Notes: generated by a model not told the origin, from the letters alone. A stretch of DNA of 64,000 nucleotides from a candidate division CPR3 bacterium GWF2_35_18 (GCA_001771135.1 MESW01000008.1:2373-66372), one strand, 5' to 3'; counted from the first letter of the stretch, positions 16,393 through 20,190 are shown. Numbers and translations are program-made.

Positions 16393-16959
16393 GTGAGAGT
16401 AATCCTCTGGGTTGTTGGCGGTGGCTTTTACCAGCACGTTTGCGCCGAATTTGATCCAGTCAACAATGGATTTGTACTGGAAAATTATGACAGTCGTCAA
16501 ATTGTCGGTGGACGAAAGGTAAATGTTATCAATTCGCACCAGATACTTCAAGGTTGGGCGAATTTCTCAAGAGGAGGAACGGGAGAGATCGAAGTTACGG
16601 GAGTATGGATCTACCCGTATCTTTACCCACTAGAGGAGGATTGGAAACCGTTTCCTCTCTACTGGTGTTTAATTAATTACCAGTCGTTCATGATGACACC
16701 CCAAGGTCTTGTAATTCCGGCCGACTGTAACATTGAGATTCAGTCTGCTCGTTTTCCCAAGATTTCAGGAACATACAGATTTCTTGAAGACTTTAATCCT
16801 TTTGATGGAGCTCTTGCTCCGCAATTCAGGTTGAATGCAGCACCGCAAGCAGGTGTAATCCTTCGGCGTGTTGTAAACACTGGCACTACTTGCCGTGGTT
16901 CAGCAAACCTCAACCTTCCTTCTTCGGAATTAATCAAAAAAGTATTCGAAGAATACTAA
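16393..16959 (+). CDS. Hypothetical protein (GC-rich island, immediately upstream of the orphan F1 beta/alpha pair).
   Basis: GTG start at 16393-16395, preceded by AAAGGAGAG. 188 aa with no motif recognised. Same RBS context as the downstream beta gene. Confidence 0.5.
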   Translation: MRVILWVVGGGFYQHVCAEFDPVNNGFVLENYDSRQIVGGRKVNVINSHQILQGWANFSRGGTGEIEVTGVWIYPYLYPLEEDWKPFPLYWCLINYQSFMMTPQGLVIPADCNIEIQSARFPKISGTYRFLEDFNPFDGALAPQFRLNAAPQAGVILRRVVNTGTTCRGSANLNLPSSELIKKVFEEY

Positions 16960-17007
16960 AAATGCACCTAAAAATTTCAAATGTAAGATACGAAAGGAGA
17001 GTGTTGT

Positions 17008-18408
17008 GTGGAAAAACAAACTGGTAGAATTTCCGCGATTCAAGGTGTGGTTCTCAAAATCCTTTTTCCAGCAGGAAATGGATTACCATCGATTTACGAT
17101 GCATTAGAAATCAATCGTGACGATGGATCAAAGTTAGTCCTGGAAGTTCAAGGTTTACCCAGCACCGAAACTGCTTTGGCCGTGGCCATGGGTCCAACAG
17201 CTGGACTGCGAATCGGTATGCCGGTAGTAAATACTGGAAGTCCAATCAAGGTTCCGGTAGGACAATGTACCCTTGGAAGGGTTTTCAATGTTTTGGGTGA
17301 GCCTGTAGACGCTGCCGGTCCAGTTTTGGCTGAGAAATTCTCGCCGATTCATCAGGCTTCTCCCTTGCTTTATAACCAAGAACCTACCGTAAAAATCTTG
17401 AGGACAGGAGTGAAAGTGATTGATCTCATTGCTCCTTTGACTCAAGGTGGAAAATCGGGCGTGTTTGGAGGAGCGGGAGTGGGAAAGACCGTCATCATCA
17501 TGGAGCTTATTCGGTCAATCGCGACCGTGCTTCAAGGGTTAGCGGTTTTCGCTGGTGTCGGAGAACGTTCTCGTGAAGGAACGTCTTTTTTCCGTGAGAT
17601 GACCGAGTCTGGCGTTTTACCTTCAACCGTGATGGTTTATGGACAGATGAATGAACCTCCCGGTAATCGTCTCCGCGTGCTTCTAACCGCACTCACTATG
17701 GCAGAGCATTTCCGAGATCAAGGAAAGGATATTCTGCTGTTCATTGACAACATCTTTCGTTTTGCTGCAGCCGGTATGGAAGTTTCGGCTTTGCTTGGGC
17801 GGATGCCTTCAGCAGTTGGATATCAACCTACTTTGGGGACTGATTTAGGTGAGATTCAAGAACGTATCACTTCAGTTCTCGGGAGTGGTTCAATCACTTC
17901 AATGCAAGCGGTATATGTGCCCGCTGATGATCTTTCTGACCCTGCTCCGGCGACAACCTTTGGCCATCTCGATGGTTCAATTGTTTTAAGTCGAGAGATT
18001 GTGGAAAAGGGGATTTATCCGGCGGTTGATCCACTGGCTTCAAATTCAAGAGCTTTGGACCCAAGAATTGTTGGACAGGAACACTATGACGTTGCACGTG
18101 AAGTGCAACTTGTCCTCCAAAAATATCTGGATCTCAAAGATATCATTTCGATTCTGGGTGTGGATGAGCTAGGAGAAAATGATAGGCTTATCGTTAGCCG
18201 AGCCCGGAAAATTGAAAGATTCTTTTCCCAGCCATTTTTTGTGGCACAGCAATTCACCGGTAGAGATGGGAGATACGTTTCCCTAGAGGATACAATTAAA
18301 GGCTTTAAGGCTATCCTTGCCGGTGAAGTTGACGATATTCCTGAACCAGCGTTTCTTATGGCAGGAAACATTCAGGAAGTTAAAGCAAGAAGGGAGAGTA
18401 AGCAATGA
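17008..18408 (+). CDS. atpD: F1-ATPase beta-subunit-like protein (second, island copy).
   Basis: GTG start with an AAAGGAGAG RBS. Walker [10 protein letters not shown], catalytic GERSREG, a DELSEED region altered to DELGEND, and a conserved C-terminal [14 protein letters not shown]. 466 aa. Confidence 0.9.
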
Positions 18409-20099
18409 CTCAACCTACTTTTTCCGCTCAATCAATTACTGCAGGTTTGTTGGATCAAATTCAAGCCTTTCAACCACCAGCATTCACGGTCCATACTGTA
18501 GAGGTTTTAATCCCAACAGGCGTTGTTATAGGCTTCTCTGACGGAATTGCGACAGTAAAGCCCAACAAAGTCGGTGAAGTTGGTTTCGAAGCATTGGTTC
18601 AATTTTCAACCTCTGTTCAAGGTATGGTCCTTGGACTTGATGAGGAAAAAATTCAAGTCGTGGTTCTTGGATCATCTGAGGGAATCGTTCCCGGATCAGA
18701 AGTTTATTCTCTGGGGAAAATTGCCTCCGTTCCCGTTGGTGATGCTCTCTTGAGTCGAGTAGTTGATGTTTTAGGTCGTCCTCTTGATAACAAAGGACCA
18801 ATCAAAACCACAGCTTCACGACCGATGGAAAAAATCGCCGCCGGGATCATTGAACGCAAAGACGTTGACACGCCAGTCCAGACTGGGATCAAAGCAATTG
18901 ATGCGATGACTCCTATTGGACGTGGACAGCGTGAGCTCATCATTGGTGACCGTGGGACAGGAAAAACCGCTTTGGCGATCGATACGATCATTAACCAAAA
19001 AGGTAAAAACCTGATCTGTATTTACGTTGCCATCGGGCAGAAAAAGAGCAGTATAGCTCGACTCATCGCAACTCTTGAATCATATGGAGCCATGGAATAC
19101 ACAGTTATTGTGGTGGGATCAGCTGATGATCCTGCGGGACTACAATATCTAGCTCCTTACGCCGGATGTGCAATCGGTGAAGAGTTCATGGAACGCGGTC
19201 AGGATGTCTTGATCGTCTATGACGATTTGACGAAACATGCTTGGGCTTATCGCCAAGTTTCTCTGCTTTTGCGTCGGCCGCCAGCACGTGAGGCTTACCC
19301 GGGTGACATTTTTTATTTACATTCACGCCTTCTCGAAAGAGCGGTGCGGTTAGCGGATAAATATGTCATCGTTACAGTAGATTTTGTTGGGAATTTAGCC
19401 GAACAGGGCGATGCCGTAAATGGGTTTACATATGATGGTCCTCTTGCTAAACACAAAGCAGATACAGCATTGAAGCAATTAGATCATCCAGATATGTACC
19501 GTGTATGCAAATTACGTGGTAGTGGCGGTTCATTGACCGCTTTGCCGATCATCGAAACCCAGCTTGGCGATGTCTCCGCTTACATTCCTACCAACGTGAT
19601 CTCGATCACGGATGGCCAGATTTATCTGGAAGGTAATCTTGGTGCCGCGGGAATTTGGCCGGCAATCAATGTCGGTTTGTCTGTTTCCCGCGTAGGCGGC
19701 GATGCTCAAATTCCAGCGATGAAAAAGATTGCTGGTCCTGTCCGCATGGATATGGCACAATTCCGAGAGCTTCAAGCTTTTGCCCAACTAGGTCAAGATC
19801 TTGATAAATCTACTCAAGGCCAAATTGATCGCGGTCGAAGACTGCAGGAGATCCTGAAACAACCTCAATATCAGCCGGTACCGGTTGAAGAGCAAGTCGT
19901 TATTCTTTACGCCGGAACGCATGGATATGCTGATAAAATTGGAGTTTCAAAAGTTAAAGAGTGGGAGCGTGAGCTTCTCAAATACATGCAGAAAAAATTT
20001 TCTGCGATACTTCGAAAAATAAGCGAAGAAAAGCGGTTATCTCCAGAATTGGAAGCAGAGCTAAACGCTGCCTTACAAAATTTTCAATTCGAAGAATAA
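18405..20099 (+). CDS. atpA: F1-ATPase alpha-subunit-like protein (second, island copy) with a roughly 45-aa internal insertion.
   Basis: ATGA overlap with the beta gene. Intact Walker [37 protein letters not shown], then an inserted segment [54 protein letters not shown] before [15 protein letters not shown]. 564 aa. Confidence 0.9.
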
Positions 20100-20136
20100 C
20101 ATCTTCATTCTCACAAAACGGTAAAAATTTCATTAA

Positions 20137-20190
20137 CTGCGGGCGTAAAAGCCGTTCTCGATCATTCGAGTAACCCGCAGCTTTTTCTTT
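20137..20190 (+). terminator. Rho-independent terminator after the island alpha gene.
   Basis: CTGCGGG...CCCGCAG 7-bp stem enclosing an inner CTCGA-tcat-TCGAG hairpin, followed by CTTTTTCTTT. Confidence 0.55.

What the first reader, a model, noticed from the sequence alone, without database searches (positions are those of the whole stretch)
16393..20190. Orphan second F1 beta-then-alpha gene pair on a GC-rich island, with no gamma, delta, epsilon or Fo genes, an alpha insertion and a DELGEND loop
A gene for an unknown 188-aa protein is followed by a beta-like gene (intact P-loop, GERSREG) and an ATGA-overlapping alpha-like gene (intact GDRGTGKT). The pair ends at a strong terminator at 20137-20190. 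The gene order is beta before alpha, the reverse of canonical atpA...atpD. It resembles the N-ATPase and V/A-type order of catalytic subunit before non-catalytic subunit. No stalk, rotor or membrane genes accompany the pair. The alpha carries a roughly 45-aa insertion between LLERAVRL and [15 protein letters not shown]. The beta rotor-contact loop DELSEED is DELGEND, which is less acidic. The 188-aa gene and the beta gene share an identical GTG start context, AAAGGAGAGTG plus 5 nt plus GTG. The block is visibly more G+C-rich (by eye, mid or upper 40s %) than the surrounding genome (mid 30s %), so it was probably acquired horizontally. An alpha3beta3-type hexamer encoded without a central stalk is unusual. 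It may be a free-standing F1-like ATPase working with the adjacent unknown protein.
Basis: partly seen in the sequence, partly recalled or inferred. Interest (0 to 1): 0.8.

Follow-up and report, generated by a model that had tools for sequence, protein, structure and literature searches.

The report
Borrowed ATP-synthase head genes in CPR3
A tiny groundwater bacterium (candidate division CPR3) that has its own ATP-synthase operon also carries a second, stalk-less beta+alpha gene pair taken from Chloroflexi-like bacteria, and its alpha subunit has lost the arginine normally needed for fast ATP turnover, so what the pair does is unclear.

Summary
orf188 (16393-16959), an F1 beta gene (17008-18408) and an ATGA-overlapping F1 alpha gene (18405-20099) form a compact unit at 44-47% G+C in a 30-38% genome. 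The unit has no gamma, delta, epsilon or Fo genes. The native operon (b-delta-alpha-gamma-beta-epsilon) lies at 41601-46754 on the minus strand.

The window is candidate division CPR3 bacterium GW2011_GWF2_35_18, and the genes are already deposited as plain "ATP synthase beta/alpha".

Both proteins pass the canonical atpD and atpA models. They fail the N-ATPase, Mycoplasma F1-like, FliI and V-type models. Their nearest relatives (62-69% identity) are Anaerolineae-type Chloroflexota, whose alpha subunits already carry the "special" insertion. Those operons run alpha-gamma-beta-epsilon. Codon usage lies outside the host range. So this is horizontal acquisition followed by rearrangement.

There is no rate acceleration, and divergence is concentrated in the alpha N-terminal domain, which argues against uniform decay. 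orf188 has no homologue anywhere.

The function is unresolved. My best guess is an accessory, slow ATP-binding head that uses the native stalk.

The parts
16286..16314 (+). Promoter-like site (TTTAAA, 17 nt spacer, TG-extended TATAAT) in the 124-nt gap upstream of orf188
   Evidence: This is a consensus match only, and promoter-like sites are not enriched over shuffles in the region.
16377..16388 (+). Shine-Dalgarno block GAAAGGAGAGTG, 4 nt before the GTG start of orf188
16393..16959 (+). orf188: a 188-aa protein with no homologue. It shares the island's codon usage. The N-terminus looks like a possible signal peptide (inspection only).
   Evidence: ORF. (no Pfam, NCBIfam, PDB, PHROG or PADLOC hit). 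(only itself in the 5.8 G and 1.84 G protein sets; the other hits are tandem-repeat artefacts). (AF2 pLDDT 31). (codon usage z = -3.1).
16992..17003 (+). Identical Shine-Dalgarno block GAAAGGAGAGTG, 4 nt before the GTG start of beta
17008..18408 (+). Xenologous F1 beta subunit gene (atpD-type, 466 aa) with intact catalytic motifs. Deposited as KKP69905.1.
   Evidence: (TIGR01039 690 bits vs cut-off 463)
18405..20099 (+). Xenologous F1 alpha subunit gene (atpA-type, 564 aa), translationally coupled to beta through an ATGA overlap. It has its own GGGAGAG Shine-Dalgarno site inside the 3' end of beta. Deposited as KKP69906.1.
   Evidence: (TIGR00962 681 bits vs cut-off 484)
19362..19520 (+). Segment encoding alpha residues 320-372. 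This is the Anaerolineae-type insertion, predicted to be a small folded beta/alpha module.
   Evidence: shared with the 553-aa homologues; absent from the native alpha. (absent from all solved alphas). (pLDDT 65-90 across the insertion).
19656..19658 (+). TGG codon for Trp418, at the position of the catalytic arginine finger (bovine alpha R373, E. coli alpha R376)
   Evidence: The residue numbering in reference enzymes is from established knowledge.
20137..20190 (+). Terminator-like branched hairpin plus a T-rich tail, 38 nt after the alpha stop codon
41601..46754 (-). Context: the native F1/stator operon, b-like, delta, alpha, gamma, beta and short epsilon. It holds the only gamma, delta and epsilon genes in the window. 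No a or c genes are adjacent.
10437..13411 (-). Context: a first foreign-composition segment next to tRNA-Leu. It holds an aspartate-carbamoyltransferase-like gene plus ORFs without homologues, and is separated from the beta/alpha unit by a P-type ATPase gene with host-like codon usage.

Best explanation
The unit is a horizontally acquired catalytic-head gene pair (atpD + atpA) of Anaerolineae-type Chloroflexota origin, resident in a candidate division CPR3 (Patescibacteria-type) genome that has its own divergent F1 operon.

After or during transfer, the donor arrangement alpha-gamma-beta-epsilon was reduced and permuted to beta-alpha. The two genes became translationally coupled through an ATGA overlap. 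Together with an upstream gene that has no homologue (orf188), they form one three-gene operon with strong Shine-Dalgarno sites and its own promoter-like and terminator-like signals.

Shown:
- foreign origin
- canonical F1 family membership
- intact beta catalytic motifs
- loss of the alpha arginine finger (R to W)
- absence of any stalk or Fo gene in the unit
- no overall rate acceleration
- divergence concentrated in the alpha N-terminal (crown and delta-binding) domain

Inferred:
- The two proteins co-assemble into an alpha3beta3-type hexamer that still binds ATP at the beta sites but turns it over very slowly, because the arginine finger is missing.
- The unit encodes no shaft, and the F1-typical constraints are retained, including the gamma-facing DDLSDP catch loop and the acidic DELSEED-type loop. 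It therefore most likely functions as an accessory or alternative head that docks on the native gamma/epsilon/delta/b stalk, rather than as a rotary enzyme of its own.
- The remodelled alpha N-terminus would reflect loss of the original delta partner or adaptation to a new one.
For: Organism and public status.

Family membership: (atpD 690 vs 463; atpA 681 vs 484; all other F1-like, FliI and V-type models fall below their cut-offs).

Donor affinity:
- The nearest relatives are Anaerolineales, Anaerolineae or Chloroflexota proteins at 62-69% identity.
- The roughly 50-aa alpha insertion is shared with them and is absent from the native alpha and from every solved alpha.
- In NJ trees each island protein is sister to all 119 top hits.

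Donor-type operons run alpha-gamma-beta-epsilon.

Foreign composition:
- GC3 and codon-usage z are -3.1 to -3.6, intermediate between host genes and the Anaerolineae atp genes.
- Shine-Dalgarno sites are strong and two starts are GTG, unlike the native atp genes.

Not an assembly chimera: identical junctions appear in at least five assemblies from different samples.

Selection rather than uniform decay:
- The two beta/alpha ORFs (17008-20099, 3.1 kb) are intact.
- Root-to-tip distances equal those of bona fide ATP synthase genes: beta 0.868 vs 0.835, alpha 1.277 vs 1.363.
- In alpha, 16 of 39 clade-conserved positions are changed in the N-terminal domain against 10 of 159 in the nucleotide-binding domain, p = 1.4e-6.

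Arginine finger lost.

No stalk remnants in the island.

Native gamma, delta and epsilon are present 21 kb away.
Against: No expression, assembly or activity data exist.

The arginine finger is universally conserved and is required for steady-state catalysis in studied F1 enzymes (established knowledge). Its loss is also what the first step of pseudogenisation would look like.

One re-assembly (L089) shows a 185-bp frameshifting deletion inside the island alpha, and another (L007) shows a 52-bp deletion in the neighbouring carbamoyltransferase-like gene. If these are real, the unit is dispensable in part of the population.

The time since transfer is unknown. Anaerolineae loci range from 38 to 67% G+C, so the intermediate codon usage need not mean long residence. 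The conservation could therefore have been inherited from the donor.

Compatibility of a head that is 49% (beta) and 35% (alpha) identical to the native one with the native gamma was not tested.

All known copies are essentially clonal, so no dN/dS could be computed.
Confidence: 0.35

Rival explanations
1. A passenger on the way to loss. The pair arrived by horizontal transfer (possibly recently, from an unsampled lower-GC Anaerolineae-related donor), has no role in CPR3, and is beginning to decay. The arginine-finger R to W change would be the first inactivating hit.
For: - The arginine finger is lost and the P-loop has Q to G.
- There is no shaft or Fo partner in the unit.
- Candidate deletion alleles exist in the island alpha (L089) and in the neighbouring carbamoyltransferase-like gene (L007).
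- The surrounding genes have no homologues.
- Low-GC Anaerolineae exist, so little amelioration is required.
- The unit is known from a single clonal population only.
Against: - There are no stops or frameshifts in the 3.1-kb beta/alpha reference sequence, which is identical over the stretches covered in four further assemblies (L001, L002, L007, L008).
- There is no rate acceleration.
- Changes are strongly non-uniform between domains, with the nucleotide-binding domain changed at only 6% of conserved positions.
- A newly created ATGA translational coupling and three matched Shine-Dalgarno sites imply tuning after the rearrangement.
- The native alpha also lacks the finger, yet sits in an intact operon, so this lineage tolerates its absence.
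Confidence: 0.3
2. A free-standing, stalk-less F1-derived hexamer. It would work on its own or with orf188 as a new partner, in a non-rotary role such as slow ATPase, nucleotide sensor or scaffold.
For: - orf188 is co-oriented, 48 nt upstream of beta, carries the identical 12-nt ribosome-binding block, and has the island's codon usage.
- No shaft gene is present in the unit.
- The alpha N-terminal domain is remodelled.
- Isolated alpha3beta3 rings are known to hydrolyse ATP (established knowledge, Bacillus PS3). Mycoplasma F1-like clusters show that F1 heads can be re-used with unrelated partners (PMC3369863, PMC8406192).
Against: - orf188 has no detectable homologue or fold.
- It shows no similarity to gamma, epsilon, delta or b of the donor type or the native type.
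- Its N-terminus (MRVILWVVGGGFYQHVCA|E) and four cysteines look more like an exported protein (inspection only), which would put it on the other side of the membrane.
- The known re-used F1-like systems keep a gamma-like shaft (PMC3369863, PMC8406192).
- The gamma-facing loops of beta remain canonical.
Confidence: 0.2
3. An ancient vertically inherited paralogue rather than a transfer. CPR F-type ATP synthases are thought to share ancestry with those of Chloroflexota. The island pair would be a slowly evolving ancestral copy and the 'native' operon a fast-evolving one.
For: Mahendrarajah et al. [quoted passage not shown] The island proteins branch outside the sampled Anaerolineae hits rather than within them.
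Against: - Codon usage, GC3, the strength of the Shine-Dalgarno sites and the GTG starts all differ from host genes, including the native atp genes.
- The alpha shares a derived insertion with Anaerolineae-type proteins that the native alpha and all solved alphas lack.
- No other CPR sequence among 5.8 billion proteins is closer than the Anaerolineae hits.
- A neighbouring segment of similar foreign composition (10.4-13.4 kb) carries a carbamoyltransferase-like gene whose best relatives are also mostly Chloroflexota.
Confidence: 0.05
4. An assembly or binning artefact: an Anaerolineae fragment wrongly joined into a CPR3 contig.
For: The composition is foreign and the best hits come from another phylum.
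Against: - Where they reach, the island's junctions with host genes are identical in independent assemblies from different samples (JGI 3300025095; ENA ERZ28563708 and ERZ27254807; several NCBI genomes); JGI 3300025081 (L002) lies wholly inside the island region.
- The segment lies inside a 333,914-bp contig.
- Codon usage is intermediate rather than Anaerolineae-like.
- No sampled Anaerolineae sequence is closer than 69%.
Confidence: 0.02

Closest known systems
Canonical bacterial F1 alpha/beta of Anaerolineae-type Chloroflexota (for example P0012, P0128/P0017 and P0123)
   Same: - 62-69% identity over the full length.
- The same domain architecture.
- The same roughly 50-aa insertion in the alpha nucleotide-binding domain.
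- The same beta catalytic motifs.
- Both island proteins pass the atpD and atpA equivalog cut-offs.
   Different: - There the genes sit in alpha-gamma-beta-epsilon operons at 54-59% G+C. Here the order is beta-alpha with an ATGA overlap, with no gamma or epsilon.
- Here the alpha arginine finger is R to W and the P-loop has Q to G.
- Here the alpha N-terminal domain is strongly diverged, with four small indels.
Mycoplasma F1-like ATPases, Type 2 and Type 3 (MSC_0618/0619; Béven et al. 2012, PMC3369863) and the M. mobile gliding-motor F1-like ATPase (MMOB1660/1670; PMC8406192)
   Same: Extra alpha/beta-like genes in a genome-reduced, host-dependent bacterium that also has a genuine F1Fo operon. 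They are spread by horizontal transfer and associated with proteins that have no known relatives.
   Different: - Those clusters have seven genes, including gamma-like and epsilon-like subunits and membrane proteins. Their sequences evolve fast.
- Here there are only two F1 genes plus one ORF.
- The island proteins score far below the family cut-offs (400 vs 570 and 295 vs 520; 464 vs 850 and 404 vs 600) and are ordinary atpD/atpA by sequence.
N-ATPase (alternate F1Fo; TIGR03305 and TIGR03324)
   Same: A second, horizontally spread F-type set in which beta comes first in the operon.
   Different: N-ATPase is a complete operon (beta-epsilon-AtpQ-AtpR-a-c-b-alpha-gamma; PMC4154653) in which beta and alpha are not adjacent. 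The island proteins score below the N-ATPase cut-offs (558 vs 752; 577 vs 750).
Isolated alpha3beta3 subcomplex of thermophilic Bacillus PS3 F1 and its arginine-finger mutants (laboratory constructs; established knowledge)
   Same: A shaft-less alpha3beta3 ring can assemble and hydrolyse ATP. Replacing the alpha arginine finger slows catalysis by orders of magnitude without abolishing nucleotide binding.
   Different: Those are engineered proteins. Here the shaft-less gene set and the finger loss are natural, and nothing has been measured.

Membership tests
F0F1 ATP synthase beta subunit (atpD, TIGR01039) | Full-length match to the equivalog model above its curated cut-off | tested here: met
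   690 bits vs 462.85, residues 5-461
F0F1 ATP synthase beta subunit (atpD, TIGR01039) | Catalytic motifs: Walker A GGAGVGKT, catalytic Glu in GERxREG, Walker B DNIFRF, adenine-pocket YVPADD, and an acidic DELSEED-type loop | tested here: met
   All are present in the translation. DELGEND is within the variation of the clade.
F0F1 ATP synthase alpha subunit (atpA, TIGR00962) | Full-length match to the equivalog model above its curated cut-off | tested here: met
   681 bits vs 484.45
F0F1 ATP synthase alpha subunit (atpA, TIGR00962) | Catalytic arginine finger (GIRPAxNxG) contributed to the beta catalytic site | tested here: not met
   The island has GIWPAINVG. All 119 homologues and the best PDB matches have R.
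F0F1 ATP synthase alpha subunit (atpA, TIGR00962) | Non-catalytic-site Walker A motif GDRQTGKT | tested here: inconclusive
   The island has GDRGTGKT. The GxxxxGKT core is kept, but the near-invariant Gln is replaced by Gly.
Complete F1Fo ATP synthase (as a system) | Genes for gamma, delta, epsilon, a, b and c accompanying alpha/beta | tested here: not met
   None are in the unit, and there are no remnants in 10.3-20.5 kb. Gamma, delta, epsilon and b exist only in the native operon.
N-ATPase (alternate F1Fo) | Match to TIGR03305 and TIGR03324 above cut-off, and an operon with atpQ/atpR and Fo genes | tested here: not met
   558.5 vs 752 and 576.6 vs 750.5. No such genes are adjacent.
Mycoplasma Type 2/3 F1-like ATPase and M. 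mobile gliding ATPase | Match to the MSC_0618/MSC_0619 or MMOB1670/MMOB1660 models above cut-off, and a seven-gene cluster with gamma-like, epsilon-like and membrane proteins | tested here: not met
   399.8 vs 570, 295.4 vs 520, 464.3 vs 850 and 403.5 vs 600. No such neighbours are present.
FliI / type III secretion ATPase | Match to the FliI/SctN models above cut-off, and FliH/FliJ-type partners | tested here: not met
   The best is 244.5 vs 619.1. orf188 has no FliH, FliJ or any other family hit.
V/A-type ATPase A/B subunits | Match to the A/B subunit models above cut-off | tested here: not met
   175.7 vs 349 (B) and 142.2 vs 470 (A)
Horizontally acquired genomic island | Composition and codon usage outside the host range | tested here: met
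   z = -3.1 to -5.7 against 37 host genes. GC3 is 0.37-0.51 against 0.21-0.31.
Horizontally acquired genomic island | Phylogenetic affinity to a foreign lineage, supported by a shared derived character | tested here: met
   Best hits are Anaerolineae-type and share the alpha insertion. The native copies are only 49% (beta) and 35% (alpha) identical.
Horizontally acquired genomic island | An empty site in related genomes, or mobility genes and flanking repeats | not testable with these tools
   Genome and metagenome scans found no CPR3 relatives. No integrase was found among the island ORFs scanned. tRNA-Leu abuts the first segment. Flanking repeats were not searched.

The most novel reading that the evidence does not exclude
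A CPR symbiont has captured only the alpha3beta3 head of its (probably Anaerolineae) host's ATP synthase. It has disabled fast catalysis by replacing the arginine finger, remodelled the stator-binding N-terminus of alpha, and uses the ring, with the lineage-specific orf188 protein or the native stalk, for something other than conventional rotary ATP synthesis. In the same cell the native alpha has independently lost both its P-loop and its arginine finger. The lineage would then be running F1-type machines without the residue regarded as indispensable.
Probability: 0.15. Interest if true: 0.8.

Novelty: new variant of a known kind. Interest (0 to 1): 0.45.

Why it matters
If the pair is functional, it would be a natural example of an F1 catalytic head moved between phyla without its shaft. 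That tests how modular the rotary ATPase really is: can a foreign alpha3beta3 ring run on, or regulate, a native stalk?

It would also show two natural alpha subunits without the arginine finger in one organism, which questions how universal that requirement is.

Both foreign-composition segments have mostly Chloroflexota as nearest relatives. This gives a testable clue to the unknown host or partner of CPR3 bacteria.

If the pair is a decaying passenger, the case is ordinary. It would be one more transfer into a reduced genome, already deposited and annotated as ATP synthase subunits.

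Tried and rejected
1. Structure prediction of orf188 from the single sequence gave pLDDT 31, which is unusable, so no fold search was run.

2. An exhaustive HMMER search of orf188 against 1.84 billion representatives returned only orf188 itself at a convincing E-value. The four weaker hits have multiple matched stretches each. The two inspected (P0300, P0302) are tandem-repeat proteins; the other two were rejected without inspection.

3. dN/dS could not be computed. Every other assembly of the locus is 99.98-100% identical, and the three substitutions found in these assemblies between 12 and 20.1 kb all lie in the P-type ATPase gene, none in the beta/alpha unit.

4. The amelioration argument for long residence was dropped, because Chloroflexota loci range from 38 to 67% G+C.

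5. A search for remnants of gamma, epsilon, delta, b or donor-neighbour genes in the island found nothing. All-against-all comparison of the island ORFs without homologues also found nothing.

6. Scans for CPR3 relatives with the native alpha, in the genome and metagenome collections, returned only the organism itself or nothing. No empty-site test and no check of the arginine finger in relatives was therefore possible.

7. P0122 scored as the closest alpha relative, but it is a chimera. Its first ~192 residues are identical to the island alpha, and the rest is a different alpha without the insertion. It comes from a protein-level assembly source, so it was discarded.

8. The count of deviations from clade-conserved positions (43 in beta, 35 in alpha) at first suggested accelerated evolution. 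The NJ trees and relative-rate comparison show instead that the island proteins simply branch outside the sampled clade, and many of the 'deviations' match the native copy.

9. PHROG and PADLOC searches found no phage or defence connection.

10. Literature searches found no description of this CPR3 pair.

Full report
**Observation**

The beta stop and the alpha start overlap as ATGA.

G+C in 1-kb windows is 0.451-0.476 for 17-20 kb, against 0.30-0.39 for most of the window. Per gene it is 0.441, 0.465 and 0.457.

The shared start context is GAAAGGAGAGTG followed by 4 nt (not 5) and GTG. AAGGAGAGTG occurs three times in 64 kb against 0.1 expected. The alpha gene has a similar GGGAGAG site inside the end of beta.

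A branched hairpin at about 20137-20180 (dG -18.9 kcal/mol, z = -3.1) followed by a T-rich tail is a plausible terminator, although the simple scan did not call it. A promoter-like site lies at 16286-16314.

**Organism and public status**

Exact look-up identifies the window as candidate division CPR3 bacterium GW2011_GWF2_35_18, from groundwater. The two genes are deposited as KKP69905.1 and KKP69906.1 and named plain ATP synthase beta and alpha.

The same DNA, with junctions to host genes wherever the contig reaches them, occurs in several assemblies from different samples. It is therefore not a mis-join.

**'Second' is right**

A native operon lies on the minus strand:

| Gene | Coordinates |
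|---|---|
| b-like | 46200-46754 |
| delta | 45653-46225 |
| alpha | 44073-45656 |
| gamma | 43283-44101 |
| beta | 41834-43273 |
| epsilon (86 aa) | 41601-41861 |

The island beta is 49% identical to the native beta, and the island alpha is 34.5% identical to the native alpha. An ABC transporter, not a and c genes, lies upstream of the b-like gene. A weak search found no a or c gene in the window.

**Family**

Both island proteins pass the canonical equivalog models: atpD 690 bits vs 463, and atpA 681 vs 484. They fall below the cut-offs of the N-ATPase, Mycoplasma F1-like, gliding-motor, FliI/T3SS and V/A-type models. The likeness to N-ATPase or V/A-type is gene order only.

**Origin**

The best hits among 5.8 billion proteins are 62-69% identical. 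Where they are named, they come from Anaerolineales, Anaerolineae or Chloroflexota.

The alpha hits are almost all 553 aa. The native alpha lacks it, and no solved alpha has it (query residues 320-372 unaligned). With an alignment, AlphaFold models the insertion confidently as a small beta/alpha module. DELGEND is within the variation of that clade.

In NJ trees rooted on the native copies, each island protein is sister to all 119 hits. Three donor-type loci show alpha-gamma-beta-epsilon at 54-59% G+C, with GC3 0.59-0.75.

Island genes, including orf188, have synonymous codon usage outside the range of 37 host genes (z = -3.1 to -3.6), intermediate towards the Anaerolineae genes (z = -7.7 to -11). 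They also carry strong Shine-Dalgarno sites and two GTG starts, whereas the native atp genes have neither.

A segment of similar foreign composition at 10.4-13.4 kb, next to tRNA-Leu, holds a carbamoyltransferase-like gene. Of its best relatives in species-representative genomes, 43 of 80 are Chloroflexota. A P-type ATPase gene with host-like codon usage separates the two segments.

I conclude horizontal acquisition from an Anaerolineae-related lineage, followed by loss of gamma and epsilon and permutation to beta-alpha. A caveat from the literature is that CPR F-type enzymes are thought to share ancestry with those of Chloroflexi (PMC10656485). Composition and the shared insertion argue against a vertical paralogue.

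**State of the proteins**

Beta keeps its P-loop, the catalytic Glu/Arg, Walker B, the adenine pocket and the gamma-facing DDLSDP loop.

Alpha has Trp at the arginine-finger position ([12 protein letters not shown] at 19656-19658) and GDRGTGKT instead of GDRQTGKT.

The island proteins differ at 43 of 286 (beta) and 35 of 266 (alpha) positions that are at least 97% conserved in the 119 hits. Many of these match the native copy. Root-to-tip distances equal those of ordinary ATP synthase genes (beta 0.868 vs 0.835; alpha 1.277 vs 1.363). There is therefore no rate acceleration.

In alpha the changes are concentrated in the N-terminal crown and delta-binding domain: 16 of 39 against 10 of 159 in the nucleotide-binding domain, p = 1.4e-6. 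That domain also has four small indels. This is a domain-specific change of constraint, not uniform decay.

The native alpha also lacks the finger (GIQPAIDIG) and has a degenerate P-loop (GEKKIKKS). I cannot explain this.

**orf188**

orf188 has no hit in Pfam, NCBIfam, PDB, PHROGs or PADLOC. It finds only itself in both large protein searches. Its structure prediction is unusable. It shows no similarity to stalk subunits. Its N-terminus looks like a signal peptide by inspection only.

**Limits**

All copies are clonal, so selection within CPR3 could not be measured.

Two re-assemblies carry deletions: 185 bp in the island alpha and 52 bp in the carbamoyltransferase-like gene. It is unknown whether these are real.

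The donor's G+C is unknown, and Chloroflexota loci range from 38 to 67%, so residence time cannot be inferred.

No CPR3 relatives were retrievable.

**Verdict**

This is a real, horizontally acquired, rearranged beta-alpha pair of canonical F1 type with a disabled arginine finger. It is already in public databases but, as far as my literature searches show, not described.

My estimates for its function:

| Explanation | Confidence |
|---|---|
| Accessory, slow ATP-binding head that depends on the native stalk | 0.35 |
| Decaying passenger | 0.30 |
| Free-standing ring, with or without orf188 | 0.20 |

Noticed in passing
window 44073-45656 (-), and the whole native operon 41601-46754 (-): The native alpha subunit has a degenerate Walker A motif (GEKKIKKS instead of GDRQTGKT) and Gln in place of the arginine finger (GIQPAIDIG). 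It scores below the atpA cut-off (427 vs 484). Gamma, delta and epsilon also score below their cut-offs. Epsilon is only 86 aa, with no C-terminal helices. No a or c genes are adjacent; an ABC transporter lies upstream instead.
   Followed up: partly
window 10437-13411 (-), next to tRNA-Leu(CAA) at 10224-10308: A first foreign-composition segment (G+C 0.43-0.48, codon usage z = -2.2 to -5.7). It holds an aspartate-carbamoyltransferase-like gene (11834-12778, just below the equivalog cut-off, 225 vs 237) and four or five small ORFs without any family hit. The best relatives of the carbamoyltransferase are 53-58% identical, and 43 of 80 are Chloroflexota.
   Followed up: partly
L089 (ENA ERZ28564302), corresponding to window 18893-19077: One re-assembly from another sample has a 185-bp frameshifting deletion inside the island alpha gene. 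It removes the P-loop region and has ATCA microhomology at the junction. It could be a real loss-of-function allele or an assembly artefact near a contig end.
   Followed up: partly
L007 (ENA ERZ28563708), corresponding to window about 11962-12013: A deletion of about 52 bp truncates the carbamoyltransferase-like gene to 293 aa in another re-assembly. The rest of the 18.7-kb locus is 100% identical.
   Followed up: no
window 39664-40626: A 960-bp stretch without ORFs lies upstream of a tyrosine recombinase gene (40627-41556). It holds the third copy of AAGGAGAGTG (39710-39719). No Rfam family matches at gathering threshold.
   Followed up: no
window 16377-16388, 16992-17003 and 18389-18397, compared with the start regions of all host genes: All three genes of the unit, and most ORFs of the first foreign segment, have strong GGAG-type Shine-Dalgarno sites, and two use GTG starts. 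Only about a quarter of the host genes show such a site, none of the native atp genes does, and all host ORFs listed start with ATG.
   Followed up: partly
P0122 and P0281 (database proteins): These are protein-level-assembly entries whose N-terminal ~192-218 residues are identical to the island alpha but continue as a different alpha subunit without the insertion. They are chimeras that can mislead a homology search, because P0122 scored as the best hit.
   Followed up: yes
window 48766-55992 and 56060-63829 (-): Two adjacent giant ORFs of 2408 and 2589 aa, with repeat-rich sequence that looks like surface proteins.
   Followed up: no
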